A stretch of 64,000 bases of DNA, from assembly GCA_959608885.1 (NCBI GenBank), contig CAUHSG010000010.1, forward strand, positions 2,441-66,440, written 5' to 3'. Of the stretch, positions 5,764-57,687 are shown piece after piece. Position 1 is the stretch's first letter. Every line of letters starts with the position of its first letter. The notes under the pieces were generated by a model that saw nothing but the letters and a program-made list of their open reading frames with translations, did not search any database and was not told the DNA's origin. Position numbers and translations under genes: made by a program. The stretch is from an uncultured Coriobacteriia bacterium (lineage in GTDB: Bacteria; Actinomycetota; Coriobacteriia; Coriobacteriales; QAMH01).

Positions 5764-5786
5764 TTTGATTCATGCATTATACGCAT

Positions 5787-11034: not shown

Positions 11035-11347
11035 CTTGCTCCGTTTGTCATGTGCCAGTGGAAGCGCTCCTCCCAACTGACCTGGTTTTTGACCCCACAC
11101 TCGCATACAGAAACTTTTGCCTGATACTATCTCACTACTCATTTTCTCGCCCGGGACACCGTATGTGACCTTAACGGACGGTACGTCTTACCCCTAAGAT
11201 GCGCCATGCTCGCGACCAGGAAACCCTGCCCGTTTACGTGGATCCTTTCGACCGCATCTGCCTTGGACTAGAACTGTTTTACCAGCTCGCAACCACAGAC
11301 TTGGGAGGAGCGAGTCTAGTGTATCACGCGGCAGATAATCGCGTGCG

Positions 11348-31938: not shown

Positions 31939-31969
31939 ATGAGGCAAATGACCTGTCCATTTGTCTCAT
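31939..31969. repeat. type-2 hairpin repeat (inner loop is the reverse complement of the comF copies)
   Basis: ATGAGGCAAATGACCTGTCCATTTGTCTCAT. Confidence 0.8.
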
Positions 31970-32540: not shown

Positions 32541-32574
32541 CTTCCCGGAGAGAGGGAGGGCATGTTTGAGATGG

Positions 32575-32611
32575 AACCAGACAAAAGTCGCCGGGGCAGT
32601 TTTGTCTGGTT
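32575..32611. repeat. REP-like palindromic element type 1 (orientation B)
   Basis: AACCAGACAAAAGTCGCCGGGGCAGTTTTGTCTGGTT abuts the feoB stop. Confidence 0.9.
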
Positions 32612-35337: not shown

Positions 35338-35368
35338 ATGAGACAGATGCTCTGAGCAGCTGTCTCAT
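35338..35368. repeat. type-2 hairpin repeat between feoA and feoB
   Basis: ATGAGACAGATGCTCTGAGCAGCTGTCTCAT. Confidence 0.8.
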
Positions 35369-39353: not shown

Positions 39354-40256
39354 ATGCGCCAACATCGCAAGAATGAGACAAATGCCCTGGGCAAATGTCT
39401 CATTTTGCTGCTCGTCGCAGCGCTCGCGCTGTTGCCGGGATGCTCATCGGCGCTGTCATCGCTGCCAACGACGGGACTCCCCTCGGGCGTCGAGTACACC
39501 GATCTTGGCACCCCCAACTTTGGCGAGCTTGCCGGACAAACCGAATCCTTCGAGGAGTACAGCCCGCTTGACGCGCTGGGGCGCTGTGGTGCGGCGACCG
39601 CGTGCATCGGTCGTGACCTCATGCCCACCAAGGAGCGGGGGCAGATCAGCTCCATCAAGCCCACGGGCTGGCAGCGCGCCGAGTACGACTTCATCGACGG
39701 CGGCCTGCTCTACAATCGCTGCCACCTCATCGCCTACAGCCTCACCGCCGAAGACCTCAACGAGCGAAACCTCATCACTGGCACGCGGCAGATGAACCTC
39801 GCGATGACCGAGTTCGAGAAACTCGTGTGCGACTACGTGGAAGACACCGGCAATCACGTGCTATACCGGGTCACGCCCGTATTCGAGGGCGTCGAGCTCG
39901 TCGCGCGGGGCGTGCAGATGGAGGCACTTTCCATGGAGGATAACGGCGAGGCTATCTGCTTCAACGTCTTCATCCCCAACGAACAAGACGGCGTTGGCAT
40001 TGACTATCTAACAGGGTATAGCTGGCTAGCTGGAGAGAGTGGAGGCACGGGCTCGAAGAACGGCGAAGGCGCTGCCGGGAGAAGTGGCGACGAGACCACG
40101 TGCGTCTACGTGCTCAACACGAGCAGTAAGCGCTTCCACCTCCCCACCTGCGATTCCGTCCCCACCATCAGCGCGAAGAACAAAGCCGAAAGTGATAAGT
40201 CCCGTGACGAATTGATAGCCGAGAGCTACAAGCCCTGCGGCAGCTGCAAGCCGTAG
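39354..40256 (+). CDS. secreted lipoprotein DNA/RNA nuclease (EndA/DNA-entry-nuclease-like) with C-terminal Cys motif domain
   Basis: Lipobox LLPGC, nuclease core YNRCHLIAYSL..ITGTRQMN, and C-terminus RFHLPTCDS..YKPCGSCKP. The signal n-region is encoded by type-2 repeat 39373-39403. Confidence 0.8.
   Translation: MRQHRKNETNALGKCLILLLVAALALLPGCSSALSSLPTTGLPSGVEYTDLGTPNFGELAGQTESFEEYSPLDALGRCGAATACIGRDLMPTKERGQISSIKPTGWQRAEYDFIDGGLLYNRCHLIAYSLTAEDLNERNLITGTRQMNLAMTEFEKLVCDYVEDTGNHVLYRVTPVFEGVELVARGVQMEALSMEDNGEAICFNVFIPNEQDGVGIDYLTGYSWLAGESGGTGSKNGEGAAGRSGDETTCVYVLNTSSKRFHLPTCDSVPTISAKNKAESDKSRDELIAESYKPCGSCKP
39373..39403. repeat. type-2 hairpin repeat inside the nuclease signal-peptide coding region
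   Basis: ATGAGACAAATGCCCTGGGCAAATGTCTCAT, translated as NETNALGKCLI. Confidence 0.8.
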
Positions 40257-41806: not shown

Positions 41807-44278
41807 TTACATCGCCTGGAAGGCGCCGTTGCTCACGCGGGATTCCGCCACCTGCTCATCGCGCTTCCTTCCCATGATGTGGTCCTCGAAGTCGTCCATG
41901 TCGCGGGCGCTGTGGCGACGGGCGTACAGAACGCCCAGGCCGTAGACGATGGTGACGAGCGCGCCGAAGATCATCAGCCAGTGCGTCCAGCAGTGGATCT
42001 CCTCGAAGGCGGCCAGCGCGTTGGCGTCATCGTCGATGGTGGTGATGTCGGCCAGCGGGTTCTCGGCATCGCCGATGGCCTCGACGGCCGCAACAGCAGC
42101 TGCGGCTGCCGCAGGAGCGACGGCGTCAGCGGGGGTCGCAACTGCGGGAGCAACTGCGGGACCGGCGGGAGTATCGGTCGTGGCGGTGCCATCACCCGGC
42201 GTAGTCGGGGTCACGGGGTTGGTGGGGTCGGTCGGATTCGTCGGGTCGGTCGGAACGACCGGCACGGTCGGATTGTCGGGTTGCACGGCCGTCCACAGAG
42301 CCGTGAAGGTGATGTTGCCGGCCTCGTCGACGGCAGGCTCGCTCCAACCGGCAAAGTCATAGCCCTCGCGGGTGGGGTTGGCCGGGTTGCCGCCGGTATA
42401 GCCATTCACCTTGTAAGCAGTGGTGGAGTCAATCACGGGATCCGTGCCGTCGTCGTAGCCCTTGAGCCAGGTCACGGTAATCATCTTGGGGACGGGGGTG
42501 TACTCGGCCCTGTAGGTGACATCACCGTCTTCAACAGACTTAGTCCAGCTGTTGAAGGCATAGGTGAAATTGTCATCTTCGGGTCGTGTCGGATCATTTT
42601 GAGTATCTGCTGCAGGAATATTCTCTTCGCCAACAGCAATGGTCGTATGGAGTTCATCGCCATTCCAATTAACCCATGTTACGGTGTACTTGGGAATTGC
42701 TGTATAGGTTGCCTTGTAGGTTATATCGCCGGCATCAGTCTTGCTGTCAACAACCCATCCGGCAAACTTGTAGGTGTTGTCGTCGTCCTCGGCCTTTGTC
42801 GGAACAGCGCCAGGGTATTCGGGCTCGCTAGCAGTCAGGCCATCGTCGCTCAGCTTGAAATCCGCCTTGGCGAGCACGGTGGCACCGTCTTCGTCTATCC
42901 AGCAAGCGGTGAGAAGCCTCCACGCGGCGGTGATGGTAACGCTGTCCTTATCGTAGACGGGCAGTCCCCATCCAAGGAACTCGTAGCCAGCGCGCGACGG
43001 GTTGGCGGGATTTGCCAAGGCCTTCGCGTTATCTTCGGTATCACTGGACGTACCGCCCTTCAGGACCTTGCCCTTTTGAAGCACCTGGGAAGTATAGCCA
43101 TCGAACCAGTAGACAGGGCAGCTGGGAAGCATGGGGATGGGCCTCTTTTGCACATAACCGCAATCAACGCAGCTACGCGACTCGAGACCTTCGGAATCGA
43201 TCGTGGGCTCGGTCACGACTTTCCACCCGGTGAAATCGTGTGCGGCATATTCAACACCGCCCTCCTCTTCGCCATTGCACCACTCGCACGCTTTCTTGTG
43301 CTGCGCATCGTCAGCAAAGATCCACTCGACCTTTTCAAAACTGTGTCCATGGGCCGGAGTCTCGGTCTTCGAAATGATCGTTTTGCAAACCGGGCAGCTC
43401 TTCGTGTAGGCACCGGGTTTCGTGCAGGTGGCAGTGGCAACATCCTCGTACACCCAGTGACCGTCGTTTTCCGCCCAGTCCTCATGCTCGCAGTAGACCG
43501 TCAGGATGCCAAACTCTTCATTAACAACTCGATAGTCGTTCTCGATGAAAGACGACTTATAGGCGACCGTGTATTCCATATTGGCTGACGTTCCAACCTC
43601 CGTTTGGGATGAAGTGGTCGTCACTGTTACAGTCCCGGTGTCATCAGAATCATGGTTCATGAGCAGGCCCTCAACGTGACCAGGCGCCGTGAGTGGAGTG
43701 CCATCGTATTTCTTCTTGGCAGAATCGGTCACAACAGTGAGAGGAGCGGGGGAGATGTTGTATTCGAGACTCGCGATTTCCTTGCCGTCGACAAAAACAT
43801 GGCAATTGTATTTTCCGGCGTGGAACCATAGCTTGTCGTGCCCGTCTTCGGAAGACCATGTGTATGTGTAGTCCTTCGATTCGAGTTGCTGGCCGTTCTT
43901 GGTGACGATAACTTCAGGTTCCTGCTGAAGAGCGTTATAGGTTGCGGAACTTGACGAAAGCCTCGCCGCGAATCCCGTAACAGGATCCTCTTGACCTTCG
44001 TTTTGCTTCTGCTGCTCGTCCTTCTCGTTCTCGAGTGCGAGCGTGGTGATTTCGGCCTTCTCTATGACCTTGGCGCTATCCTCCTGGCCGGAAGACTTCT
44101 CCTTCTTCTCCTTCTCCGCCTCCTGCATCAACTCGGAGTCGGTGCTCGAACCGAGCGCGGCGCTCGCAATGGGAATGATAGTGAGAGTCGACACGGCAAA
44201 CACGATGGCGATAAAGCCCGAGAGGCACTTGCCCCATACCGTATCCTTTGGCTCCCTGTACTTTCTCTGTTGCTTCAT
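41807..44278 (-). CDS. giant surface protein S1 (824 aa): shared signal region, MBG-like and Cys/His modules, Listeria-Bacteroides (Flg_new)-type repeats, Pro/Thr stalk, shared C-terminal TM tail
   Basis: I chose start ATG 44278 (MKQQRKYREPKDTVWGKCL..PIASA) by analogy with S2 and S3. Repeats include SRAGYEFLGWG, YKFAGWVV..YKATYTA and REGYDFAGWSE..FTALWTA. The tail is ENPLADITTIDDDANALAAFEEIHCWTHWLMIFGALVTIVYGLGVLYARRH..DMDDFE..NGAFQAM. Confidence 0.85.
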   Translation of the reverse strand: MKQQRKYREPKDTVWGKCLSGFIAIVFAVSTLTIIPIASAALGSSTDSELMQEAEKEKKEKSSGQEDSAKVIEKAEITTLALENEKDEQQKQNEGQEDPVTGFAARLSSSSATYNALQQEPEVIVTKNGQQLESKDYTYTWSSEDGHDKLWFHAGKYNCHVFVDGKEIASLEYNISPAPLTVVTDSAKKKYDGTPLTAPGHVEGLLMNHDSDDTGTVTVTTTSSQTEVGTSANMEYTVAYKSSFIENDYRVVNEEFGILTVYCEHEDWAENDGHWVYEDVATATCTKPGAYTKSCPVCKTIISKTETPAHGHSFEKVEWIFADDAQHKKACEWCNGEEEGGVEYAAHDFTGWKVVTEPTIDSEGLESRSCVDCGYVQKRPIPMLPSCPVYWFDGYTSQVLQKGKVLKGGTSSDTEDNAKALANPANPSRAGYEFLGWGLPVYDKDSVTITAAWRLLTACWIDEDGATVLAKADFKLSDDGLTASEPEYPGAVPTKAEDDDNTYKFAGWVVDSKTDAGDITYKATYTAIPKYTVTWVNWNGDELHTTIAVGEENIPAADTQNDPTRPEDDNFTYAFNSWTKSVEDGDVTYRAEYTPVPKMITVTWLKGYDDGTDPVIDSTTAYKVNGYTGGNPANPTREGYDFAGWSEPAVDEAGNITFTALWTAVQPDNPTVPVVPTDPTNPTDPTNPVTPTTPGDGTATTDTPAGPAVAPAVATPADAVAPAAAAAAVAAVEAIGDAENPLADITTIDDDANALAAFEEIHCWTHWLMIFGALVTIVYGLGVLYARRHSARDMDDFEDHIMGRKRDEQVAESRVSNGAFQAM

Positions 44279-44382
44279 GTGCTTCACCGGCCTTCCCTCG
44301 GTCCCCTGCTTCTCTCCTCGCGCCAACGGCATTGCGGAGCATGCGCCCACGCGTACGACGCGTATGTAAACGGGATGGCCGT

Positions 44383-44388
44383 AGTATA
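44383..44388 (-). promoter_or_regulatory. candidate -10 (TATACT) of the S1 promoter
   Basis: The minus strand reads GGAAATTGCCCCGTCAATATACT, 105 nt upstream of the S1 ATG. The same arrangement sits 106 nt upstream of S2. Confidence 0.45.
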
Positions 44389-44657
44389 TTGACGGGGCAA
44401 TTTCCGCGCTGAGCTGGGATTTCTCCGAAAGACGCCAATATGGCTCCAGGGTTATGACAGGGTAAATGACCCCTGCTCTGACCTGCGAATTTCGGTAACT
44501 GGCCAGATAATCAGTGATGGGCACATTCACTAAATGAACGTCATTTGACATTGTATTGATTGTGTATTGAGAGGAAAAAGGGCGTACTATTGACCGTGTT
44601 CCTCTCCCGGGCACCCGTGGAGACAGGGAAAGGCACCGGACAGCAAGGACGGCGCAC

Positions 44658-46155
44658 ATGCAGACGCAAAGCTCACCCATAGTAGCGTATCGCGACCACT
44701 GGACTTCCGAGTGCATTGCGCTCATCTGCGGAATCGCCAATGCGGGCGGCGGAACCCTTGTCATAGAGTCGAGTGAGAAAGCCTACACGACCGGTCGGCG
44801 CAAGCTGAGGCGTCCGTTCGAGCAGATCCCCAAGCTTGTCGAAAAGGAGCTGGGCCTGCAATGCACAACCGAACCCGTGCTCGACGGCACGGCGCTGTGC
44901 CTGGAAACGACCGTTCCGGCAGCGGCAAAACCCCTCGCCTATGACGGCACGTACTGGCTCTACGCCGGCAACGCGAACATTCGCTCGACCCGCAAGACAA
45001 TCGAAGGGGTCCTGTCAAACGCCCCTGGCGACACCGAATCATTCGATACGCCCTGGGAGATGCGACCCCAGGCCGGAGTCAAGCTCGAGGATCTGAACGC
45101 CCGGGTGTTCCTCACGGTCGCGGCGCTGAAGACCGAAACATCTGACTTGCCCATGGACCCACTGGGAGCCGTGTTCGAGCATCGCCTGGCCCACCTGAAC
45201 CTGGAAAACCCACAGACCCAGGCCATAACGAACGCCGGCGTTCTGCTCCTGCACAACCAGCCCGATGCGATCATACCCGGTGCCCTGGTGCAGTTGCGAC
45301 TCCTCGCGCAGGACGAGCGGGTCGTGTTGCACGACGAGGTGAGCGGCCCCCTGCTCCGTCAAATCAAGGAGACGTCGCGTCTGCTCTTCGAGCAGTACCT
45401 GCCCATGGCGATCGCCGCCTCCGGATCGATGAACGATCCCGCCGCGGGTCTGAACTTTCCATCCCGCGAAGCCGTGCGCGAGGCCCTGTTGGGGGCACTG
45501 GCGCACAAGGACTACGCATGCGGCCAGCCGGTAAGCGTCGACGTCTTTCCCAGCCGCATGATCATACGAAATCCCACGGAGGCAGGCGTGCCCAGCCTTG
45601 CAGCTGGCGAGGATTCCGAAGTCCCGGCCATTGTCGCAAATCCCGTTCTCACCAGGGCCATGCGTCTCGTCGGCATCATGGATGACCGGGACGTCGATTA
45701 CGAGCGAATCAGCCAGAAGAACCTCGAGGTCGGACTCGATGCTCCCCTTCTCGAACAGGATGACGGCGAGACGTCAATCACCTTTCCCTTGGATTCGGAG
45801 AAAAGGCGGCAAATGAGCACCCCCCCCCCCTGCGCATGATTTTGACTCCGAATCCCCGGCACCTGCTAGCCGCGTGACCAACGTTTCCAATATCGAGAAC
45901 CCCGAATCCAAACCCAGGTACACGCCCTTCTCGGCACGCTCCATCGCGGCTGCCAACGAGCTCGATCTCACCTCGACCGACGAGTACGTCTTGCGCGTGC
46001 TGCACACCAACGGCCGTGCGACGGCGGTGCGCATAGCAAACGTGCTGGGCGTGAGCGAGAGCACCGTGCGACGGGCGTTCAGGAAGCTGAAGAAGCACGG
46101 CCTCATCGACCGCATAGGGTCGGACAAGGCCGGCTACTGGCACGTGAACGTGTAG
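44658..46155 (+). pseudogene. regulator R1 (COG2865-type AlbA_2 / HATPase_c_4 / wHTH) split by a +1 frameshift in a C11 tract
   Basis: ORF 44658-45839 (393 aa) ends MSTPPPCA* and ORF 45874-46155 carries the wHTH. Removing one C from 45819-45829 fuses them into a 498-aa protein colinear with R2 (491 aa). Confidence 0.75.
45819..45829 (+). repeat. homopolymeric C11 tract in the R1 linker
   Basis: Counted directly: gcaCCCCCCCCCCCtgcgca. Confidence 0.95.
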
Positions 46156-46319
46156 GAGGCGAGGGTCAGCCCCCTTGCCGCCTGCTAGAGCAAGGGGTGC
46201 TGGGAGAACGCGGGCGCGATTACGTCGGATTCAAGCTCCTCGTGTTCCGTGAGTGTCTTATCGAGCGGCTATAGCAGGCGCTGGCGCGTAAGCATATAAG
46301 AGCGTGGTATACTACACAG

Positions 46320-46412
46320 CCAGCGGATGCCCGCGACTGTTGCGTCGGGCAACGCCGTTTTCAGAATTGACCGCTTCCGCGCCTACGGGCGCGGGCGGTC
46401 ATCCTTTTTCCG
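46320..46412 (+). ncRNA. candidate small RNA, copy A (own extended -10 promoter and intrinsic terminator)
   Basis: TGGTATACT at 46306-46314. Stem-loop GCCCGCGAC..GTCGGGC. Terminator GACCGCTTCCGCGCC-TACG-GGCGCGGGCGGTC followed by ATCCTTTTTCC. A near-identical unit lies at 52211-52300, with an indel that breaks any shared ORF. Confidence 0.5.
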
Positions 46413-46466
46413 AGCGCCGCTCGGAGTCTTGATCACCAGTCTGATTCTGTCCCCCTATAACGCGAG

Positions 46467-46492
46467 GGAGGCGGCCCGAAGGCCGCCTCCCG
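46467..46492. terminator. strong GC hairpin after S2 (shared with the S3 downstream region)
   Basis: GGGAGGCGGCC-CGAA-GGCCGCCTCCC. The same sequence occurs at 52951-52976. Confidence 0.6.
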
Positions 46493-46531
46493 GTGGAGCT
46501 ATGTCGCTTGCGCGTCGCTAATTAGCTTGCG

Positions 46532-49500
46532 CTACATCGCCTGGAAGGCGTTGCCGGCTGCGGGGTTCTTCTCCGCGGCGGCGTCGTACTTCCTGCCACC
46601 CATGATGTCGCCCTCGAAGTCGTCCATGTCACGGATACCATGGCGGCGGCGGTAGAGCACCGCGAGGCCGTAGACGATGGTGACCAGGGCGCCGAAGATC
46701 ATCAGCCAGTGGGTCCAGCAGTGGATCTCCTCGAAGGCGGCGAGGGCGTTCTCGTCGTCATCGATGGTCGCCAGAGGCACACCGTCGTCGAGGATGGTGG
46801 CGGCGGCAGCTGCGGCAGCCGCGGGAGCGGCGGCGGCAACCGGCGCCAGCGGGGCAGCGGCGGCAGGTGCAGGCGTGGCATCAGGCGTAGCCGTGGGGAG
46901 CGCGGTGAAGGCAATGACGAAGGCCGTGTCATCGGTGAGCTCCATGTTGGCGAGCGGCTCGTTGTTCCACATGCCGTTGCCGTAACCGTCGTCGGCGGTC
47001 GCGCCGGGGATCTGAGCCGCGGTCAGGACGGCCACGCCGTCCTCGGCCAGGTTGCCGGCGGCGTCGTACTTGTTGAGCACGTAGCGGGCAGGACCGTCGA
47101 TGGTGCCAGCGATGGCCGCATAGGTCACGACGAGCTGGTACTTGTCAGCAATGCCATCGGGGACGTTGTTGCCGGGGTCGGTCGGATCCGTTCCGATGAC
47201 ATCCAGCGCCCAGTTGGCGGTGAAGGTGTACTCGGTGTTGCCCTGGAGCTCGCGAGTCAGGTTGGAGGCAACTGCGTTGCCGTCCTCGGTCCATCCGTCG
47301 AAGACAAAGCCGGCAGTCGGGTTAGTGGCCACACCGTCGAAGATGTTAACGGTGCCAGAGGTCGCGTTGTTGGCGAAGGTGACAACCTTCTGCGCAAGGT
47401 TAACGGTGCCCTGAGCGTTGTTAGCCGAGACATAGTTGACGACGGCCTGGTACTTGTCGGGGATGCCGTCACCAGGGTTCTCGCCATTGCCATCGTTGTT
47501 GGGGTCGGTGATGACGTCAACAGCGTAGGTCAGGGTGATAACGTTATCGTCCGCATTGGCCCCAATGGTTAGCTGCTCCGTGTTAGCACGCTCGAAGATA
47601 TATCCCTCGATGGCAATAACCTCGTCGGAGGAGCTAATGACGCTCTCAAACTCCTGGGGAGCACCGGTCTTGGGATCGAGCAGGGTGTTTCCATCCTCGT
47701 CAACATAGTTAACGGTGTAGGGGAAAGAGTCCTTGACGTAGGTGACGGTGACCTCGGCGCCGTTGGCGACCTGGGTGCCCGCCGTCACGTCCGTGCCGTC
47801 TGCGAGCTTGACGGTGGAGAGCTTGTAGCCGGCGTACTTCTGGTCGGCCACGTCGGCGGCCTTGAGCTCGAGGGTCTGCGGGTCGTTGACCCACACGCCC
47901 TTGGCCTCGCCGGTGAAGGTCGCGCGGGGGGCGTCCTCGCCGTCGACCACGTGCTTGACGGTGTAGGCCAGGTCGTTTGCCTGGGAGTCGTCCTTGACGT
48001 AGGTGACGGTGACCTCGGCGCCGTTGGCGACCTGGGTGCCCGCCGTCACGTCCGTGCCGTCTGCGAGCTTGACGGTGGAGAGCTTGTAGCCGGCGTACTT
48101 CTGGTCGGCCACGTCGGCGGCCTTGAGCTCGAGGGTCTGCGGGTCGTTGACCCACACGCCCTTGGCCTCGCCGGTGAAGGTCGCGCGGGGGGCGTCCTCG
48201 CCGTCGACCACGTGCTTGACGGTGTAGGCCAGGTCGTTTGCCTGGGAGTCGTCCTTGACGTAGGTCAGCGTGATGGTGGTGCCGCTCTCGACCTTGGTGG
48301 TGCCCTCGGCGACCGAGATGGAGTCGAACTTGTAGCCGGGATAAGTATTCTGGTCGAGGCTACCTGTAACGATGGCAATCATCGCTGGGATATCGGTAGA
48401 AGTGGAAGTGTAGGTCTTGGTATCGGCGGTCTGCTCGACGCCGGCGACCACGTGCTTGACGGTGTAGCTGGTTTCTGTGGCAATGGGCTTCCACTGGGCG
48501 ACATAGATGACATCATCAGTCACAGTCTCTGCAACTGCCGGATTCCAGCCAGTAAACTCATATCCAGTTCGTTCTGGAGTGCCTTTAAAAGCAGGCGTGA
48601 ACTTACCAGCTTCCACGGTATACGATTGGTCCGCAAAGACTTCCTCTCCATCTACGCCATCGACGTACTGAATAGTGTAATCTTTCACTTTTTCAACAAT
48701 TGACACGACAAAGATATCGCAGATTCCAGAAGGAGCCATATGAAGCACATATGTTGTTGCTCCGATAGCTTCACTTGCGGTGATAGTGTTTTTAGCATTA
48801 GTATTATCTTCAATTTGGACATTCGAATTGGTTGAACGCCATACATGATCGTTCTTCGAGTCGTCTGTGCCCTCTAATCTGATCTTTCCTCCACTTTTTA
48901 CAGCAGTTTCATGAATTACGGCGTTGGGATACTCTTTCGTCAGCCGCTCTAGCGTCCAACCTGTGATATTGATATCGGTAGCATAGCTTCCTGTTCCAGA
49001 GTTATTTCCATTCCCGTTGCCGACGGCAGCAAACGTCGTGGCGCCACCAAGCTTCTCGATGAAGTTGCTGATAGCATTCTTCACCTTGTTGGCTTTTTCA
49101 CCCAGCTCGGTGGAGGGAGCGGGGGTGGAAGGCTCGGCAGCGTCAGTATTGGCGGAACCCGTGGCGGCCTCGGCGGTCACGACGATGGTGGCACCGTCCG
49201 CGACCCTATCGGCAGCGACAGTGTACTCGCCGGCGTTGGGGGTGAGCGTCGTCTCGCCCTTGGCATCAGCTAGCTTGACGGCAGCCGCGCCCAGCGTAAA
49301 GCCATCGGCGGCCTTTACCGTGAACTTCATATCCTTGCCAGCCGGAACGACGAGCTCGGTCGCGGCATCCTTGCCGTTGTAGGTGACCGTGGCGTTCTGT
49401 GCCTTCACCTTGAGCGTCACATCGGCCGGAGTGGCGTCATCGGCATCGTCTTCGTCCTCGACGCTGGCAATGCTGAGCAGCTCGACGGGCTCGAGCTTCT

Positions 49501-49723
49501 GCTCGTCGGCAGCGGGCTCGGCGGCCTTCTCGTCCTTGCCGGAGGTCTGGTCGGCCAGCTCCTCCTGCTGCTGAACCTGCGCCTCGTTGGGCTCACCGTT
49601 GATCGCGCTCGCGATCGGAATGAGGGTGAGAGTCGACATGGCGAACACCACCGCCATGAAACCCGACAGGAACTTACCCCAGAGGGTATCCTGTGGCTCC
49701 TTATACCTACGTTGTTGCTTCAT
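46532..49723 (-). CDS. giant surface protein S2 (1063 aa): shared signal region, Ig-like/MucBP-like repeats, Flg_new-type repeat, shared C-terminal TM tail
   Basis: MKQQRRYKEPQDTLWGKFLSGFMAVVFAMSTLTLIPIASA start, RTGYEFTGWNPAV..VIYVAQWKP, and YTVKHVV..VTVTYVKD modules. The tail is VPLATIDDDENALAAFEEIHCWTHWLMIFGALVTIVYGLAVLYRRRH..DMDDFE..GNAFQAM. Confidence 0.9.
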   Translation of the reverse strand: MKQQRRYKEPQDTLWGKFLSGFMAVVFAMSTLTLIPIASAINGEPNEAQVQQQEELADQTSGKDEKAAEPAADEQKLEPVELLSIASVEDEDDADDATPADVTLKVKAQNATVTYNGKDAATELVVPAGKDMKFTVKAADGFTLGAAAVKLADAKGETTLTPNAGEYTVAADRVADGATIVVTAEAATGSANTDAAEPSTPAPSTELGEKANKVKNAISNFIEKLGGATTFAAVGNGNGNNSGTGSYATDINITGWTLERLTKEYPNAVIHETAVKSGGKIRLEGTDDSKNDHVWRSTNSNVQIEDNTNAKNTITASEAIGATTYVLHMAPSGICDIFVVSIVEKVKDYTIQYVDGVDGEEVFADQSYTVEAGKFTPAFKGTPERTGYEFTGWNPAVAETVTDDVIYVAQWKPIATETSYTVKHVVAGVEQTADTKTYTSTSTDIPAMIAIVTGSLDQNTYPGYKFDSISVAEGTTKVESGTTITLTYVKDDSQANDLAYTVKHVVDGEDAPRATFTGEAKGVWVNDPQTLELKAADVADQKYAGYKLSTVKLADGTDVTAGTQVANGAEVTVTYVKDDSQANDLAYTVKHVVDGEDAPRATFTGEAKGVWVNDPQTLELKAADVADQKYAGYKLSTVKLADGTDVTAGTQVANGAEVTVTYVKDSFPYTVNYVDEDGNTLLDPKTGAPQEFESVISSSDEVIAIEGYIFERANTEQLTIGANADDNVITLTYAVDVITDPNNDGNGENPGDGIPDKYQAVVNYVSANNAQGTVNLAQKVVTFANNATSGTVNIFDGVATNPTAGFVFDGWTEDGNAVASNLTRELQGNTEYTFTANWALDVIGTDPTDPGNNVPDGIADKYQLVVTYAAIAGTIDGPARYVLNKYDAAGNLAEDGVAVLTAAQIPGATADDGYGNGMWNNEPLANMELTDDTAFVIAFTALPTATPDATPAPAAAAPLAPVAAAAPAAAAAAAATILDDGVPLATIDDDENALAAFEEIHCWTHWLMIFGALVTIVYGLAVLYRRRHGIRDMDDFEGDIMGGRKYDAAAEKNPAAGNAFQAM
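47730..48265. repeat. perfect 261-bp tandem duplication (about 2.05 copies) inside S2
   Basis: 47730-47990 and 47991-48251 are identical by direct comparison. Each encodes the 87-aa unit DSQANDLAYTVKHVVDGEDAPRATFTGEAKGVWVNDPQTLELKAADVADQKYAGYKLSTVKLADGTDVTAGTQVANGAEVTVTYVKD. Confidence 0.9.
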
Positions 49724-50099: not shown

Positions 50100-51575
50100 A
50101 TGGACACGCAGGAAACACCCCTGGTGGTCTATCGCGACCACTGGACCCCCGAGTACATCACCCTCATCTGCGGAATTGCCAATGCTGGCGGCGGTACGCT
50201 GGTCATAGAGTCAAACGACAACATATACACCACCGGACACCGCAAGATGCGGCGCCCCTTCGAGCAGATTCCCCGTATCATCGAGCGCGACCTGGGGATT
50301 CAGTGCACCACCGAGCCGGTGCTCGATGGAATCAATCTGTACCTGGAGATTCTCGTTCCGGCTGTTGCCGAGCCGCTGACCTACGAGGGCGAGTACTGGC
50401 TGTACTCGGAAGGCCACAACACGCGCTCGACCCGCGAGACCGTCTGGGCCTCCCTCAACGGCGCCGCCTCCCAACAGGATACGGAGGCAGGCGACACCCT
50501 TTCCTGGGAGATGCGCCCCCAACCCTACGTCGAGCAAGGGCAGTTGAACGCCCGCCAGTTCCTGGCACTCGGACTGCTCAAGATCGATGCGCCCGACCCA
50601 CCCACGAGCAGCGTCGAGACGGCGATCTTGCGACGTCTCGACTACCTGAACCTACGTGGCACGCGGGGCGACGGCATAACGAACGCCGCCATCGTGCTCC
50701 TGCACAACCATCCCGAAAGCATCATCCCCGGAGCGACGGTGCAATTGGAACTCGTAGCCCAGGACGATCACGCATTGCTGCGCAACGAGATAGGCGGCGG
50801 CATAAGCTGTCAGGTGGAGGAGTCGCTGCGCCTGCTCTTCGAGCAATACCTGCCCATGGCGGTGGCAACGTCCACCACCACGGAAAACCCTGTCATCGCA
50901 CTCAACTTCCCACCACAGGAGGCCGTCCACGACGTGCTGCTCGATGCCATTGTGGGCAAGAACTACGAAACCGGTCAGCCCGTGCGTGTGAGCGTGCACC
51001 CGGACAAGCTCATCATCTCGATGCCGTGTGGCGGCGTCGAAGCACCCGGCGGGGCAAACCCCGTCCTCGCGCGGGCGTTGCACCTCATGGGCTACCTGGA
51101 CAGCCAGAACGTGAACTTCGAGCGCGCCGTGCTGCGCTGTGGCGACATGGGGGCGGCACTGCCGGTCATCGAGCATGGTTCCCGTGAGACAACGGTGACA
51201 TTCTCGTTGGATTCGCAGAAAACGTGGCAAATGAGCACCCCCCCCCCTGCGCAAAATTTGGCCCGCAAGCCGCTGCCGGGCAACTTCTCGTCGACGCCGG
51301 AAAGCGGAATCGTCGGACTTGGCGAGGCGGCGCCCAAGGACGCCCCCTTCTCGGCACGATCCATCGCCGCGGCAAACAATCTGGACTTCACGTCGACCGA
51401 CGAGTACGTGCTGCGCGTGCTGCACACCAACGGCCGCGCGACGGCGGTGCGCATTGCCGGCGTGCTCGGCGTGAGCGAGAGCACGATACGTCGCTCGTTC
51501 CGCAAGCTGCGCGAGTACGGGCTCATCGAACGCGTGGGGTCAGACAAGGCCGGCTACTGGCGCGTGAATTCGTGA
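50100..51575 (+). CDS. regulator R2 (COG2865-type: AlbA_2-like N-terminus, HATPase_c_4-like middle, C-terminal wHTH), intact
   Basis: YRDHWTPEYITLICGIANAGGGTLVIES, AVHDVLLDAIVGKNYETGQPVRV, and TDEYVLRVLHTNGRATAVRIAGVLGVSESTIRRSFRKLREYGLIERVGSDKAGYW. It contains an in-frame C10 tract. Confidence 0.85.
   Translation: MDTQETPLVVYRDHWTPEYITLICGIANAGGGTLVIESNDNIYTTGHRKMRRPFEQIPRIIERDLGIQCTTEPVLDGINLYLEILVPAVAEPLTYEGEYWLYSEGHNTRSTRETVWASLNGAASQQDTEAGDTLSWEMRPQPYVEQGQLNARQFLALGLLKIDAPDPPTSSVETAILRRLDYLNLRGTRGDGITNAAIVLLHNHPESIIPGATVQLELVAQDDHALLRNEIGGGISCQVEESLRLLFEQYLPMAVATSTTTENPVIALNFPPQEAVHDVLLDAIVGKNYETGQPVRVSVHPDKLIISMPCGGVEAPGGANPVLARALHLMGYLDSQNVNFERAVLRCGDMGAALPVIEHGSRETTVTFSLDSQKTWQMSTPPPAQNLARKPLPGNFSSTPESGIVGLGEAAPKDAPFSARSIAAANNLDFTSTDEYVLRVLHTNGRATAVRIAGVLGVSESTIRRSFRKLREYGLIERVGSDKAGYWRVNS
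51238..51247 (+). repeat. homopolymeric C10 tract in the R2 linker (in frame)
   Basis: Counted directly: gcaCCCCCCCCCCtgcgca, encoding TPPP. Confidence 0.95.
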
Positions 51576-51596: not shown

Positions 51597-52016
51597 CTAG
51601 CGGCCGCTGATGTGGCTTTCGAAGCAGTCGAGCCTGCGAACCTCGTCACGACGACGCTTGACCACGGTCAGGCCGCATGCGGCGACCACGGCGAGCACGG
51701 CGACGAGAACCGCCCCCTGCGCCCAGCTAAACTGGCTTTCCTCCTTGGCGAAGGAGGCGAGCGGGGTCTCCTCGTCGGCTATCGCCTCTGCGGCCGACGT
51801 GCTAGCGGACACGGTCATGTTCTCGATGGGCACGGCCGGGCCCGTTGGCGTGCTAGCGGTCTGGATTGGCGCGACGGTGCCCTCGACGGCATGTGCGCTC
51901 GGGATGATGGCGATGACGAACGTCAGAGTGAGCGCCATGACCAGCGCGAGAATCACCGTGACGAATTGGTTGTACGTCGTGGGGCGTGCTTGTGCCGCGT
52001 TTTCCGTTTTCTTCAT
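51597..52016 (-). CDS. small secreted/anchored protein (139 aa) with signal peptide and the same type of C-terminal tail as S1-S3
   Basis: MKKTENAAQARPTTYNQFVTVILALVMALTLTFVIAIIPSAHA signal. The tail is DEETPLASFAKEESQFSWAQGAVLVAVLAVVAACGLTVVKRRRDEVRRLDCFESHISGR. Confidence 0.6.
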   Translation of the reverse strand: MKKTENAAQARPTTYNQFVTVILALVMALTLTFVIAIIPSAHAVEGTVAPIQTASTPTGPAVPIENMTVSASTSAAEAIADEETPLASFAKEESQFSWAQGAVLVAVLAVVAACGLTVVKRRRDEVRRLDCFESHISGR

Positions 52017-52131
52017 GGCTTCCCCTGCCCTTCCTGGTCAACCTGCGTTGCGAGAAAGCGACTCGCAAACAGGACATTCGCAAGATGACGAGCACATTGT
52101 ACTTGCCGACGACCGGAATGTCATCATTTAC

Positions 52132-52162
52132 GTGACAAAAGTCGCCGGGGCAGTTTTGTCAC
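52132..52162. repeat. REP-like palindromic element type 1 (GTGACA arm variant, orientation B)
   Basis: GTGACAAAAGTCGCCGGGGCAGTTTTGTCAC. Confidence 0.85.
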
Positions 52163-52210
52163 GCTTGGGACGATGATGTATGGCCGAATATGGTGCATGG
52201 TATACTACAG

Positions 52211-52300
52211 CCAGCGGATGCCCGCGACGTGGATGTCGGGCAACGCCGTTGGTTTGAATGACCGCCTAACGCCTACGGGCGCTGGCGGTCATCCTTTTTC
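52211..52300 (+). ncRNA. candidate small RNA, copy B
   Basis: TGGTATACT at 52198-52206. Stem-loop GCCCGCGAC..GTCGGGC has a different loop from copy A. Terminator GACCGCCTAACGCC-TACG-GGCGCTGGCGGTC followed by ATCCTTTTTCC. Confidence 0.5.
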
Positions 52301-52341
52301 CGAGCGTCGCTCGGAGTCTTGGACAGTGGGCAAGCGCTTCG

Positions 52342-52572
52342 TTACGTAAACGCGAGATGCTTCTCTTGATCGCGGCATTCCGCAAGGTACATGTTGATAA
52401 TGTTTTGATAGGGCACGCCAGTACGAAGCGCCTCGGCCTTGAAATAGTCGATCGTCTCGCTGTCGATGTTAATCGTCACACGGCGACGCGTCTTGCCGAC
52501 ATAGGGGTTCGGAAGGCTGTCCGAAAAATCCACCTCGGCAGGCATGTCCATGATTTCCGCAACGTCACTCAT
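52342..52572 (-). CDS. brnA: BrnA-type antitoxin (second copy)
   Basis: SLPNPYVGKTRRRVTINIDSETIDYFKAEALRTGVPYQNIINMYL is the typical BrnA/CopG-like pattern. It overlaps the brnT-2 3' end by 8 nt. Confidence 0.75.
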   Translation of the reverse strand: MSDVAEIMDMPAEVDFSDSLPNPYVGKTRRRVTINIDSETIDYFKAEALRTGVPYQNIINMYLAECRDQEKHLAFT

Positions 52573-52864
52573 TCCGATACCTCCAATACTGTCGTTCTTC
52601 CGTCTTCGTCGACTTCCTAGCCGAAATTATCCTAATCTTTGAACCGTCAGCCCTTTCGCAATGGCATACCGTAAGCACCCGTGCCTTGAGATCCATTCTC
52701 ATGAGAAAGAACCTCTCCTCTTGATCCGAGTGCTTTTTGTCTGGAACGATGCGCGCATAAGGGTCTGAGAACGCATCCGCTGCCGATTCGAAGCTCACGC
52801 CATGCTTGTCGAGATTGATGACGGCCTTCTGGTCATCCCACTCGAAATCTATGCAGTCTTCCAT
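52565..52864 (-). CDS. brnT: BrnT-family (DUF497) toxin (second copy)
   Basis: MEDCIDFEWDDQKAVINLDKHGVSFESAADAF..IRIISARKSTKTE. The minus strand has TATAAT 4 nt before this ATG, so the mRNA may be leaderless. ATG 52870 is an alternative start. Confidence 0.75.
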   Translation of the reverse strand: MEDCIDFEWDDQKAVINLDKHGVSFESAADAFSDPYARIVPDKKHSDQEERFFLMRMDLKARVLTVCHCERADGSKIRIISARKSTKTEERQYWRYRNE

Positions 52865-52950
52865 ACTCATTATATGCATATGATACATATATAATGCATA
52901 TACATCAAGGAGCAACGCATCATCGAGTGGGATTTGTCCCCATGACGCGA

Positions 52951-52976
52951 GGGAGGCGGCCCGAAGGCCGCCTCCC
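52951..52976. terminator. strong GC hairpin after S3
   Basis: GGGAGGCGGCC-CGAA-GGCCGCCTCCC, identical to 46467-46492. Confidence 0.6.
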
Positions 52977-53015
52977 GGTGGAGCTATGCCGCTTGCCGTC
53001 GCTAGCTAGCTAGCG

Positions 53016-56000
53016 CTACATCGCCTGGAAGGCTCCGTTTGCGGCAGAATCGGATGCCTGGCGGGTACTGTAGCGCCTGCTGCCATCCATGATGTCGCCC
53101 TCGAAATCGTCCATATCGCGCACATCGTGACGGCGTCGGTACAGCACGCCGAGGCCGTAGACGATGGTAACGAGTGCGCCGAAGATCATCAGCCAGTGCG
53201 TCCAGCAGTGGATCTCCTCGAAGGCGGCCAGCGCGTTGGCGTCATCGTCGATGGTGGTGATGTCGGCCAGCGGGTTCTCGGCATCGCCGATGGCCTCGAC
53301 GGCCGCAACAGCAGCTGCGGCTGCCGCAGGAGCGACGGCGTCAGCGGGTGTCGTAACAGCGGGCGTGGGGCCAGGTATCGGTGTCGGTGTCGGGGTCGGG
53401 GTCGGAGTCGGCGGAATCACCGGAGCGGGAACGTAGGTAACCACGATGGTGTGTCCCCTGGTCACGGCATTGAAGGTGAAGGTGCCGTCAGCCGACAGCG
53501 CCACGGGATTGCCATCAACCGTCACGCTCTCGAGGACGTAGCCGTCATTGGGGGTGAAGGTGTAGGTGGCGTCACCACCATAGTTCACCGTAGTGCCCGC
53601 AGTGGCTGCGTCGCTCGTGCCGTTGACGACCTGCACGTCGATGTCGAAGGTGACCGGCGTCCACTGTGCGACGTAGGTAACGTCACCAGTCACGGTATCA
53701 GTGACCTCGGGGGTCCAACCGGCAAAGATATAGCCGGCGCGAGCCGGGTCATCGATGGTCGGCGTGGTGTCGCCGTGCCTGATACCCTCGAACTGCGTCT
53801 GGACATCCTCGCCGACCGTACCGCCATTGAGGTCGTAGCTCACCGTGTAGGTATTGCGATCGTAGTAGACACTCAGGACCGTGCTGCCATTACCGGCAAC
53901 GGTAGCCGAGAGGAGCGTGCCCTCGACGGCGGGATTGTGGGTGAATCCCTCGTACTGCTTAACGCTGGCATTCACGGTGCTATCAGTCGCCCCGGTCAGG
54001 TTCTCGGTCTCGGCGAGCACATACGTGCCATCAAGCTGCTGCTGGTAGTGATGAACCGTATATGCGGTGTCGCCGTTTGCATTCCACGTAGCTGTGTACT
54101 CGCGGTTACCCGTGCTGCCCTTGGCGATGGTAACGGGGTTGGTGGCACCCGTCAGCCCCGTGCCCGTCCAGCCGGCGAAGGTGTAGCCCTCGCGGGCCGG
54201 GTTGGTGAGCGTAATGTCATCGCTCTCCACGGTATAGATGACGGGGTTAGTGCCGTCCACGGTTCCACCGTCGAGATCGTAGGTGATGGCGTACGTGATC
54301 AGCTTGTAGGTGTACGTGTACTCGGCATCGCTCGAAATCGTAGTATCCGAGGCAGGCGTCTCGTTCCAACTGCCAGCCTCGTATCCGGCTGCAGGCTTGT
54401 CACCCACAGCGGGGATGGTGTCGCCCAGAGTGGCGATGCCACCGGCAGCCATAGTGCCATTCGTGTACTTTTCAAGATACGTCACCACATCGGTGGTGGA
54501 TTCATTGTTCCAAGCACCGTTAACAACCTGATAAGTCACCTTGACCTGATACTTATCAGGAATGCCATCAAAGGTATCGGTACCATCCGGGTTGATGGTG
54601 CCCTTCGTATCCAGAGAGTAGATGATGTCGGCAACGATGTCGGCTGTGATGTTCTGCGCGGCAGCGAGCTTCGCAAGACCCTCGGCACTGGCAACCTCAT
54701 CGAGAACGTACTCGTTGTTTGCGCCCAGGCGCTGGGGAATCACGACGGCGTTAACATCGGAGCCCGTTGTACTCGCGGCACGGACCATGCGAGCAGCCGT
54801 CTGCCCCATGCTGTAATTGAAGTCAGCGCCTTCATCGACCGTAGTCTTGCTGGGATCTTGCAGAACTGCACCACCATCAGTCGTGAAATTGATGATGACG
54901 TTGTACTGCTTCTTGGCACCAGCCTCACCAGATGCTTCGCCATTGTCGGGGCCGGTGGTGTTGTTATCGTTGCTCTCGAGCGTGGCGTTGTTGACAAGCT
55001 TGCCGTTGGCAACGTCACCCTTGGTGAAAGTCTTGGTCACGTAGATGACGGCCTCGGTCTTACCATCGGCGATGGTGCCCACCAGCGGATCACCGCCGAC
55101 CCACGTTGCGTTCTCGTCAGTCACCTTGTATGCAGCACCCTCGGTACCAGTAACGGTAAGTTTGTAGAGCAAGGTCACGTTGGAGGCGTTGTCACCCACG
55201 AAAACAACGGTGTTGTCGTAATTTATGCCCTCGGGAACCGTCATGCCATCGGGAGCTTCAGTCAGACGCTGCTTCTGCAGGCTGGAGAGACTGGGCGTGA
55301 CGGGCGGGGTCACATTACGATCATATCGCAGGACGATGATATTACCGTCTTTCCCCAGGGTCAGCTCGGTGATCACATCGCCGATCGTGTAGCCATTCGG
55401 GCTGTTGTTGGCGGTGCCTTTATTGGCCTGGGTGTAGGCGTAGGTGTTCTCTACACCGTTCTTCGTGTACTTGAGGATCTTGTCGATATCATCAACCTTA
55501 ACAACGTCGCCCACATTCTTGCCAGAAATGTTCTCTTGCTTGGTGAAGCCATCCCGCTCTCCGTTAGTGTAGTACTCGTGAATCACTGTATAGGTGGTGG
55601 AGACAGGGTCAGGATTCTTCGCCGTCACGGTAGTGTTACCACTGGTCGTGTTGATTTCACATTCAATCTTGGCCTCGTTGTAGATTTTGCCGGCCGCGTT
55701 GGCCTTGACGGTGACTTTCACGTACTTGCTGCCGTTGGCGGGGACATAGACATTGTCCCAGGTCACGGTGCGGGTGTCCTCGTTGTATCTGCCACCGTCG
55801 CTGATTCCGTACATTTCATATTCGGCGTCCCACACAACGTCAAGCATCTCGTTCAGCACATCGGTGACCTTCACATAAATCCCATCGCTGTTGGGATTAG
55901 TCACCGTAATGGTGTAGGAGAACTCCTCGCCCACAACAGGGTACTCTTCACTGGGGCTCTTGCTGACAGTCAAATCCTTCAGGTTCTTTTTCCAAGTGGC

Positions 56001-57599: not shown

Positions 57600-57687
57600 G
57601 CGCCTCCACCAGCCTTTCCTCGTACTCATTTGCGGCGACGCCACTATATAAGAAGGTTTGACTGGGTAAAAATCGGCGTTTGCGCTC

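What the first reader, a model, noticed from the sequence alone, without database searches (positions are those of the whole stretch)
46306..46425. Candidate novel small RNA present in two copies, each with its own extended -10 promoter and intrinsic terminator
Units at 46306-46412 and 52198-52300 share four elements:
- an extended -10, TGGTATACT
- a 5' segment CCAGCGGATG
- a stem-loop GCCCGCGAC-loop-GTCGGGC whose loop differs between copies (TGTTGC versus GTGGAT)
- a long GC terminator hairpin whose stems are kept while internal loops differ (TTCC/G versus CTAA/CT), followed by ATCCTTTTTCC

Sequence upstream of the -10 is unrelated between the copies. That argues for a self-contained unit rather than a duplicated flank.

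The ORF through copy A (46327-46521) is not conserved in copy B, because a 1-nt indel shifts the frame. This favours a non-coding function.

Both copies lie convergent to the 3' end of an S gene, inside the surface-protein island. I could not match the sequence to any riboswitch or sRNA family I know.
Basis: partly seen in the sequence, partly recalled or inferred. Interest (0 to 1): 0.65.

Follow-up and report, generated by a model that had tools for sequence, protein, structure and literature searches.

The report
Orphan antitoxin RNAs, type I toxin-antitoxin
The two repeated units are real small-RNA genes, most likely the antisense "antitoxin" halves of an undescribed type I toxin-antitoxin module of gut Coriobacteriia, and in this genome both copies have lost the 41-residue membrane-toxin gene they pair with in other strains.

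Summary
The repeat is real. The units at 46305-46431 and 52198-52321 share an extended -10 box, a 5' hairpin, a long terminator hairpin with a U-run, and a third hairpin. All differences fall in loops and linkers. Rfam has no match.

They are not self-contained. In about 20 related gut-metagenome and MAG loci the same unit continues downstream. The opposite strand there carries a promoter, a 5'UTR with a sequestered Shine-Dalgarno, and a 41-aa ORF: MDLLIQILKLATMLAGLAGTIIRFVSKTPSDARKKDDRQRP. This peptide has a hydrophobic helix and a charged tail. Its last ~17 codons and stop codon lie inside the unit.

That layout is a convergent, 3'-overlapping type I toxin-antitoxin module, like TxpA/RatA and BsrG/SR4. 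The peptide family (39-44 aa) reaches other Coriobacteriia. It keeps the convergent two-hairpin RNA even where the sequence has diverged.

In this window both toxin genes are destroyed. A deletion fuses copy A to the S-gene terminator. A BrnT/BrnA cassette replaces the toxin next to copy B. Only C-terminal remnants remain.

No pairing with S or R 5' regions stands out.

Verdict: a new family of a known kind, present here as orphan antitoxin RNAs. Transcription and toxicity are untested.

The parts
46305..46313 (+). Extended -10 promoter of sRNA copy A (TGGTATACT)
   Evidence: The same position carries TGGTACAAT in L038 and TGGTAGAAT in L042.
46317..46411 (+). sRNA copy A core: 5' hairpin at 46318-46363, terminator hairpin at 46368-46401, then AUCCUUUUUCC
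   Evidence: Fold at -47.2 kcal/mol, z = -4.3. Consensus structure. CM R1 scores 127 bits.
46408..46431 (+). Third hairpin of copy A (CCGAGCGCCGCTCGG) plus AGTCTTG. It is conserved with the unit. On the minus strand it encodes the toxin residues KTPSGARK.
46383..46454 (-). Remnant of toxin ORF A (GDRIRLVIKTPSGARKKDDRPRP plus stop). The N-terminal transmembrane part, the Shine-Dalgarno, the 5'UTR and the promoter are all deleted.
   Evidence: tblastn. The alignment with intact alleles places the deletion junction after ...TCTGAT (about 46445).
46466..46491 (.). Terminator hairpin of the S2 gene, now fused to the remnant of copy A by the deletion
   Evidence: (D19)
52198..52206 (+). Extended -10 promoter of sRNA copy B (TGGTATACT)
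52208..52301 (+). sRNA copy B core: 5' hairpin at 52209-52254, terminator hairpin at 52259-52291, then the U-run
   Evidence: Fold at -48.8 kcal/mol, z = -5.2. CM R1 scores 139 bits.
52298..52321 (+). Third hairpin of copy B (CCGAGCGTCGCTCGG) plus AGTCTTG
52273..52326 (-). Remnant of toxin ORF B (LSKTPSDARKKDDRQRP plus stop). The rest has been replaced.
   Evidence: tblastn. Comparison with L007.
52342..52915 (-). BrnA/BrnT type II toxin-antitoxin cassette, sitting where the type I toxin gene lies in other strains
   Evidence: Pfam BrnT_toxin at 2e-26, with weaker BrnA and CopG antitoxin hits. The same allele occurs in L001 and L021.
52128..52166 (.). Palindromic terminator-like element (family D1) just upstream of copy B. 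It is a possible 3' end for the toxin transcript in intact B-type loci.

Best explanation
**What it is.** Each unit is the gene for a ~90-115-nt antisense RNA. The RNA starts about 7 nt after an extended -10 box. It folds into a 5' hairpin and a long terminator hairpin with a U-run, with a third hairpin just beyond. It belongs to a previously undescribed type I toxin-antitoxin-like module of gut Coriobacteriia.

**The intact module, seen in other strains.**
- The opposite strand carries its own extended -10 promoter (TGGTATGAT).
- It has a ~60-nt 5'UTR whose Shine-Dalgarno sits in a local hairpin.
- It encodes a 41-aa peptide with one hydrophobic helix and a charged tail.
- The two genes converge. 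The RNA is perfectly complementary to the last ~17 codons, the stop codon and the 3'UTR of the toxin mRNA.

**Inferred mechanism, by analogy with RatA, SR4, SR5 and SR6.** The RNA pairs with the 3' part of the toxin mRNA, probably starting at the hairpin loops. The duplex is cleaved, with RNase III as the likely enzyme, so the toxin is not made. The different loops of copies A and B would give each RNA a preference for its own partner.

**This window.** Both toxin genes are gone. Copy A lost the promoter, the 5'UTR and about 19 codons through a deletion. Next to copy B the toxin gene is replaced by a BrnTA cassette. The two RNAs are therefore orphan antitoxins. Either they are recent relics, or they are kept because they can still neutralise related toxin mRNAs made elsewhere or newly acquired.

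**Shown versus inferred.**
- Shown: the sequence architecture, its conservation across lineages, the loss of the ORFs here, and the absence from Rfam, Pfam and NCBIfam.
- Inferred: transcription, toxicity, RNase dependence, and any present-day function of the orphans.
For: **The toxin gene in other strains**
- About 20 loci continue downstream of the unit into a conserved minus-strand ORF with a strong Shine-Dalgarno (AAGGAGGGAGGTGGTGCCC-ATG). Gene callers independently called it as 41 aa.
- The peptide has Kyte-Doolittle hydropathy +1.58 over residues 1-25 and -2.68 over residues 26-41.
- The peptide family reaches 45-76%-identical members of 39-44 aa. The reading frame stays open while synonymous sites differ by 50-70%. 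pN/pS is about 0.4-0.7 in the part outside the RNA overlap.

**The convergent RNA in diverged loci**
- CM R1 finds the convergent RNA in L038 (127 bits) and L042 (99 bits). L042 carries a compensatory C-G to U-A change.
- L040 and L043 have no sequence match. They still have an opposite-strand -10 box, a 5' hairpin, and a terminator hairpin that spans the toxin stop codon, followed by a U-rich tail.
- Five pairs alternate between G-C and G-U, which fits the + strand only.

**Toxin mRNA features**
- The Shine-Dalgarno hairpin shows a compensatory U-A to C-G change between the A and B types.
- Pairing between the 5' and 3' ends of the toxin mRNA is predicted in five lineages.

**Loss in this window**
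- Only C-terminal remnants are found, and no toxin promoter or 5'UTR.
- The same orphan alleles appear in independent assemblies: L006 and L022 for copy A, L001 and L021 for copy B.
- In copy A the 14 nt just outside the unit carry 4 substitutions, against 0 in the 115-nt unit.

**Layout compared with known families**
- The layout matches the Gram-positive 3'-overlapping families listed in PMC8594479.
- The known mechanism of those families is described in PMC5848175.
Against: - There are no expression data for either RNA, and no toxicity data.
- Covariation is thin. Only 2 of 37 pairs show double changes, and most stems are invariant.
- Part of the conservation, in the terminator and the third hairpin, could come from the overlapping coding sequence rather than from RNA structure.
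- The -10 motif is not enriched in the window (4 found, 5.2 expected).
- The U-run is broken in L014.
- The third hairpin lies beyond the U-run yet is conserved in the orphans, so the 3' end of the RNA is uncertain.
- The toxin mRNA has no obvious terminator of its own.
- The peptide matches no known toxin family.
- Blocking the 3' end in silico did not change predicted Shine-Dalgarno accessibility. No translational switch is therefore supported.
Confidence: 0.72

Rival explanations
1. A free-standing trans-acting sRNA that regulates the neighbouring surface-protein (S) or regulator (R) genes.
For: It has its own promoter and terminator, lies inside the S/R island, and occurs in two copies.
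Against: - The S and R 5' regions rank at 0.20-0.99 of the background in duplex prediction.
- The unit is absent from the third R/S module and from more distant R/S loci L016-L020.
- In L038, L040, L042 and L043 the RNA travels with the small ORF, not with R/S genes.
Confidence: 0.06
2. In this genome the units are inert relics. They may serve as terminators for the R gene or for convergent transcription, and they carry no RNA function any more.
For: - Both toxin partners are deleted.
- In L015, L032 and L035 the unit starts 7 nt after the R stop codon, so its terminator hairpin would also end the R transcript.
- The units are identical to those of intact loci, which fits a recent loss.
Against: - The promoter box and all stems are intact in both orphans and in independent assemblies.
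- The toxin remnant next to copy A has decayed, with 4 substitutions in 14 nt across two steps (L022 to L006 to the window). The 115-nt unit has none.
- Non-cognate RNA-toxin duplexes are still very strong (about -167 against a background of -66 in RNAduplex units, with 21-nt perfect stretches). A trans role therefore remains possible.
Confidence: 0.15
3. The small ORF encodes a harmless small membrane protein whose level is tuned by a cis-antisense RNA. It would then be an antisense-regulated gene pair, not a toxin-antitoxin system.
For: - Toxicity is untested.
- The peptide matches no known toxin family.
- The ORF is lost repeatedly without obvious harm.
Against: - The architecture has the hallmarks of type I systems: a single hydrophobic helix with a charged tail, a sequestered Shine-Dalgarno, a convergent structured RNA, duplicated copies, and a location among swapped type II TA cassettes.
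- Loss always removes the ORF and keeps the RNA, as expected if the ORF alone is dangerous. No locus was seen with the ORF and without the RNA.
Confidence: 0.1
4. A DNA-level site, such as a recombination or attachment site for the small TA cassettes that come and go on either side of it.
For: - BrnTA, zeta-like and ParE cassettes abut the unit on either side in different strains.
- Copy B contains GCCTAAC, which resembles an integron attC core.
Against: - No integrase or recombinase lies nearby, and the motif is absent from copy A.
- The junctions differ from case to case.
- The deletion in copy A looks like microhomology-mediated loss.
- G-U-compatible changes point to RNA-level constraint.
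Confidence: 0.03

Closest known systems
[quoted passage not shown]
   Same: - Convergent genes.
- The antisense RNA (~100 nt) lies on the 3' side of the toxin mRNA and overlaps the end of the ORF.
- The toxin is a peptide of fewer than 60 aa with one hydrophobic helix.
- The toxin Shine-Dalgarno is sequestered.
- The expected action is duplex formation followed by RNase III cleavage (PMC8594479, PMC5848175).
   Different: - No sequence similarity in either the peptide or the RNA.
- The host is a high-GC Coriobacteriia (Actinomycetota), not Bacillota.
- The terminator hairpin of the RNA spans the toxin stop codon.
- The 5' domain of the RNA resembles the toxin's own 5'UTR.
- Both copies here lack the toxin.
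Enterococcus par locus, Fst/RNAII
   Same: - A small toxin with a hydrophobic helix and a charged C-terminal tail.
- Convergent transcription with a shared terminator region.
- Repeated sequence blocks in the 5' parts of both RNAs.
   Different: - In par the repeats are direct in the DNA, so the two RNAs pair at their 5' parts. The overlap does not include the ORF.
- Here the blocks are inverted in the DNA. The two RNAs therefore share the sequence rather than being complementary in it, and the overlap includes the ORF end.
- Pfam did not match the peptide to any family.
hok/Sok and Helicobacter AapA1/IsoA1 (toxin mRNAs locked by 5'-3' long-distance pairing)
   Same: Pairing between the 5' end and the 3' end of the full-length toxin mRNA is predicted in all five lineages examined. 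In those known systems such pairing keeps the primary transcript inert.
   Different: - In hok/Sok and AapA1/IsoA1 the antisense RNA acts at the 5' side of the toxin mRNA. Here it overlaps the 3' end.
- The pairing here is only predicted.
- No 3' processing is known.

Membership tests
Type I toxin-antitoxin system (general definition) | A small ORF (fewer than about 60 aa) encoding a hydrophobic, membrane-directed peptide | tested here: met
   Met in related loci, which carry a 39-44-aa ORF. The Kyte-Doolittle 19-residue window peaks at 1.83, and the tail is charged. In the window itself only C-terminal remnants remain.
Type I toxin-antitoxin system (general definition) | An antisense RNA gene complementary to the toxin mRNA | tested here: met
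   Met by sequence. A convergent promoter, hairpins and a terminator overlap the last ~17 codons and the 3'UTR. The arrangement is conserved in L038 and L042 and is analogous in L040 and L043. Transcription has not been measured.
Type I toxin-antitoxin system (general definition) | The peptide is toxic when expressed, and the RNA prevents its synthesis | not testable with these tools
   This needs expression experiments.
Known type I toxin families (Fst, Ldr, Hok, TxpA, Ibs, TisB and others, as far as Pfam and NCBIfam model them) | Sequence match to a curated toxin family model | tested here: not met
   No hit at E <= 10 in Pfam or NCBIfam. No hit at E <= 1 in PADLOC, and only a chance-level PHROG hit at E = 0.18.
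Known antitoxin RNA families in Rfam | Covariance-model match at or near the gathering score | tested here: not met
   No gathering-level hit in the window. With E <= 10, copy A gives only chance-level hits and copy B gives none.
Gram-positive 3'-overlapping layout (TxpA/RatA, BsrG/SR4 class) | [quoted passage not shown] | tested here: met
   The toxin stop codon and about 17 codons lie inside the RNA gene. The layout definition is taken from PMC8594479.
hok-like fold-back inhibition | The 5' end of the full-length toxin mRNA pairs with its 3' end | tested here: inconclusive
   - The pairing is predicted in the MFE structures of 5 lineages.
- Similarity between the toxin 5'UTR and the 5' part of the RNA gives z = 9.3 in L043, 3.1 in L007, 1.9 in L040 and 0.6 in L038.
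- The 3' end of the toxin mRNA is unknown.
Independent trans-acting sRNA of the S/R island | Preferential pairing with S or R mRNA leaders, and co-occurrence with S/R modules | tested here: not met
   Duplex energies lie within the background. The unit is absent from the third module and from L016-L020.

The most novel reading that the evidence does not exclude
A type I toxin-antitoxin family native to Coriobacteriia. I found no paper in the searched library describing a type I system in Actinobacteria or Coriobacteriia. Two unusual properties would distinguish it.
1. The 5' domain of the antitoxin RNA copies the toxin's own 5'UTR. The toxin mRNA would then close on itself by 5'-3' pairing, and the RNA would compete for that same 3' site.
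2. Antitoxin genes without a toxin are kept under selection as immunity (anti-addiction) genes, at a site where type I and type II TA cassettes replace one another.
Probability: 0.25. Interest if true: 0.7.

Novelty: new member of a known kind. Interest (0 to 1): 0.5.

Why it matters
[quoted passage not shown] The known families are narrowly distributed, mostly in Bacillota and Gammaproteobacteria (PMC5367252, PMC8594479). Full-text searches of the held paper library found no paper describing a type I system in Actinobacteria or Coriobacteriia. A well-defined family in abundant human-gut Coriobacteriia would widen that picture.
- **Annotation.** The family provides a peptide profile and an RNA covariance model that could be used to annotate these genomes.
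- **Evolution of TA loci.** This window shows a natural series: intact module, toxin deleted, toxin replaced by a type II cassette. That series bears on how TA loci decay, and on whether orphan antitoxin RNAs act as immunity genes.
- **Limit.** For this genome alone the practical consequence is modest. It has two small RNA genes that currently lack their partner.

Tried and rejected
- **Rfam.** Searches at gathering and at permissive thresholds gave nothing relevant.
- **Genome-collection scan.** The 5'-hairpin pattern hit only the organism's own species, plus four chance hits in unrelated phyla that lie inside coding sequence.
- **Viral-contig and plasmid searches.** No match.
- **CM search of distant R/S loci L016-L020.** No copy, so the RNA is not a feature of R/S modules as such.
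- **A + strand small protein.** Rejected, because 1-nt indels separate the copies.
- **An attC-like or other recombination site.** Rejected, because the motif occurs in one copy only and no recombinase lies nearby.
- **The RNA frees or blocks the toxin Shine-Dalgarno by displacing the 5'UTR from the 3'UTR.** Constraining the 3' region in silico gave no consistent change in Shine-Dalgarno accessibility, so I do not claim this.
- **Targeting of S or R leaders.** Not supported.
- **The simple terminator scan.** It misses the RNA terminators because the hairpin is bipartite.
- **A 14-nt match between the toxin 5'UTR block and the 3' end of S2 (46543-46556, E = 0.019).** It is not conserved in S1 or S3, so I treated it as chance.

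Full report
**The observation**

The two units exist as described.
- TGGTATACT lies at 46305-46313 and 52198-52206.
- An 18-mer and a 23-mer of the unit are exact in both copies and occur nowhere else in the window. Chance expectations are 0.28 and 0.
- In the pairwise alignment every difference falls in one of four places: the loop of the 5' hairpin, the linker, the internal loops of the long hairpin, or one loop base of a third hairpin.
- Both units fold much better than shuffled sequence, with z = -4.3 and -5.2.
- The conserved block is longer than reported. It runs to 46431 and 52321, taking in a third hairpin (CCGAGCGYCGCTCGG) and AGTCTTG beyond the U-run.
- Rfam gives no match at gathering thresholds. 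At E <= 10 it gives only chance-level hits for copy A and none for copy B.

**Context in the window**

The region holds three paralogous modules.
- Each module has a large surface protein gene on the minus strand (S: 41807-44764, 46532-49723, 53016-57644).
- Each also has a divergent regulator gene on the plus strand (R: 44658-46155, 50100-51575, 57911-59290). R combines an HATPase_c_4 domain with a winged helix. The first R gene is split at a poly-C tract.

The units sit in the gap between the 3' end of an R gene and the 3' end of the next S gene.
- Copy A is followed after about 20 nt by the S2 terminator hairpin.
- Copy B is followed by a BrnT/BrnA type II cassette (52342-52915). Only after that comes a sequence 95% identical to the terminator seen after copy A (46453-46511 versus 52938-52996).
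- The third module has no unit.

The organism is a human-gut Coriobacteriia. The only true hit of a pattern scan over 185,579 species representatives was MAG MGYG-HGUT-02686.

**Related sequences change the picture**

I collected loci in two ways.
- R-protein homologues led to loci L001 and L007-L020.
- A metagenome pattern scan gave 17 loci.

In most strains the unit is followed by about 200 further conserved bases. Read on the minus strand, these bases contain:
- an extended -10 box, TGGTATGAT;
- a ~60-nt leader;
- a strong Shine-Dalgarno, AAGGAGGGAGGTGGTGCCC-ATG;
- a 41-codon ORF, MDLLIQILKLATMLAGLAGTIIRFVSKTPSDARKKDDRQRP.

Gene callers had already called this ORF independently. Its last ~17 codons and its stop codon lie inside the unit.
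- The third hairpin encodes TPSD/GAR.
- The U-run of the RNA is the complement of the RKK codons.
- The stop codon sits in the terminator hairpin.

This explains why conservation runs past the U-run.

The peptide has one hydrophobic helix (Kyte-Doolittle +1.58 over residues 1-25) and a charged tail (-2.68).

**The family is wider than the species**

A profile search of 1.84 billion representatives, followed by a profile search of the clustered collection, found about 30 peptides of 39-44 aa. Their identity to the query goes down to about 45%. One comes from a Coriobacteriales MAG with a 2-Mb contig.

Across these peptides the frame, the start (MDLL) and the length are kept, while synonymous sites differ by 50-70%. 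pN/pS is about 0.4-0.7 in the 25 codons outside the RNA overlap. The ORF is therefore a real gene.

The covariance model built from the units (R1) finds the convergent RNA next to two diverged members.
- The 76%-identical member (L038) scores 127 bits.
- The 53%-identical member (L042) scores 99 bits and carries a compensatory C-G to U-A change in the 5' hairpin.

In the most distant loci (L040, L043) the sequence no longer matches, but the design is the same:
- a -10 box on the opposite strand;
- a 5' hairpin;
- a long hairpin spanning the toxin stop codon;
- a U-rich tail made from the complement of lysine, arginine and glutamate codons.

Covariation is thin overall. Only 2 of 37 pairs show double changes. 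However, five pairs alternate between G-C and G-U, which fits the plus strand only.

**What it resembles**

This is the layout of the Gram-positive type I toxin-antitoxin families. [quoted passage not shown] The RNA pairs with the 3' part of the mRNA and RNase III cleaves the duplex. SR4 additionally tightens the structure around the ribosome-binding site (PMC5848175).

By sequence this is none of the known families.
- Pfam, NCBIfam, PADLOC and PHROGs give nothing for the peptide.
- Rfam gives nothing for the RNA.
- No paper in the searched library describes a type I system in Coriobacteriia or Actinobacteria.

**Further features of the intact module**

- The toxin Shine-Dalgarno is predicted to sit in a local hairpin in all lineages. 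The hairpin shows a compensatory U-A to C-G change between the A and B types.
- The toxin leader shares ordered blocks with the 5' part of the RNA. In this family the blocks are CAGCGG, CCCGCGA and GTCGG(G)CAACGCC. In L043 they are CTGACGGCAC and GGGTCGCGCCC, with z = 9.3.
- Because the 3'UTR of the toxin mRNA is the complement of the RNA, the toxin leader is complementary to its own 3'UTR. Folding predicts 5'-3' closure in five lineages. This recalls hok and AapA1 mRNAs, but it is only a prediction.
- I tested whether occupying the 3' region would change Shine-Dalgarno accessibility. It did not do so consistently.

**This window has lost both toxin genes**

A tblastn search with the peptides finds only two remnants: GDRIRLVIKTPSGARKKDDRPRP at 46454-46386 and LSKTPSDARKKDDRQRP at 52326-52276. 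There is no hydrophobic N-terminal part, and no toxin promoter or leader.
- **Copy A.** The alignment with intact A-type alleles shows a clean deletion after ...AATCTGAT. It joins the remnant to the S2 terminator. L006 and L022 share this allele.
- **Copy B.** Beyond GGAGTCTTGGACA the sequence is replaced by the BrnTA cassette. L001 and L021 share this allele.

Other strains carry zeta-like or ParE cassettes on one or the other side of the unit, so this gap is a site of TA turnover.

No locus was seen with the ORF and without the RNA.

In the window's copy A, the 14 nt of toxin remnant just outside the unit have collected 4 substitutions in at least two steps. The 115-nt unit has none. This hints that the orphan RNA is still constrained.

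Non-cognate RNA-toxin duplexes remain strong, with 21-nt perfect stretches. An orphan could therefore still neutralise a related toxin mRNA.

The S and R 5' regions are ordinary in duplex prediction, ranking at 0.20-0.99 of the background. The RNA follows the small ORF into loci that have no S or R genes. I therefore reject a dedicated S/R regulator.

**Verdict**

- These are very likely small-RNA genes and are new to Rfam.
- They are not self-contained. They are the antitoxin halves of an undescribed type I toxin-antitoxin-like family, present here as orphans.
- Transcription, toxicity and the nuclease step are inferred, not shown.

I rate it as a new member of a known kind, of moderate interest.

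Noticed in passing
window 11068-11309 (-): A full-length raiA RNA motif (Rfam RF03072, 155 bits).
   Followed up: no
window, 18 sites (for example 5727-5765, 19678-19716, 32574-32612, 52128-52166): A family of 39-nt palindromes (AAACCAGACAAAAGTGCCCCGGCGACTTTTGTCTGGTTT) in intergenic gaps (D1). It looks like a bidirectional terminator or a REP-like element. One copy lies directly upstream of unit B.
   Followed up: partly
window 23403-23432, 23456-23485, 31939-31968, 35338-35367, 39373-39402: A second family of 30-nt palindromes (ATGAGACAAATGGACAGGTCACTTGTCTCA) of unknown role (D12).
   Followed up: no
window 45820-45829 and 51238-51247: Poly-C tracts of about 10 inside the R regulator genes. 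R_A is split into 393 + 93 aa here and in L007, is intact at 498 aa in L008, and is split 405 + 93 aa in L010. This suggests phase-variable expression of the regulator that sits next to each surface-protein gene.
   Followed up: partly
window 47729-48250: A perfect 261-bp tandem duplication inside surface-protein gene S2 (D5).
   Followed up: no
window 52342-52915; L007/L008/L015 (zeta-like), L014 (ParE), L038 3405-3969 (Phd/ParE): The gap between the R and S genes is a swap site for small toxin-antitoxin cassettes of different types. In L038 a type II cassette again lies next to the type I locus.
   Followed up: partly
window 51597-52016 (-); L016 5293-5799, L019 3067-3567, L020 9533-10030: A 139-168-aa ORF without a Pfam match recurs just downstream of R genes, on the opposite strand, in distant loci. 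The window's copy gave only weak membrane-protein hits in PHROGs.
   Followed up: no
window 46157-46277: A ~120-nt segment between the R_A stop codon and unit A is absent from the otherwise near-identical L006. The sequence just upstream of unit A (GCTGGCGCGTAAGCATATAAGAGCGTGG) is a degraded duplicate of the 3' end of R.
   Followed up: partly
window 50100-51575 (+): The R regulator gives a weak PADLOC hit to the middle part of an Aga SIR2-PNTD model (E = 2.5e-9), and its winged helix matches CasR/Csa3-type regulators. The meaning is unclear.
   Followed up: no
L014 6155-6170: In one strain the U-run of the RNA terminator is broken (GGTCGCTCTTATTCC), and the overlapping toxin tail changes from RKKDD to RNKSD. 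The U-run and the lysine codons are therefore coupled.
   Followed up: partly
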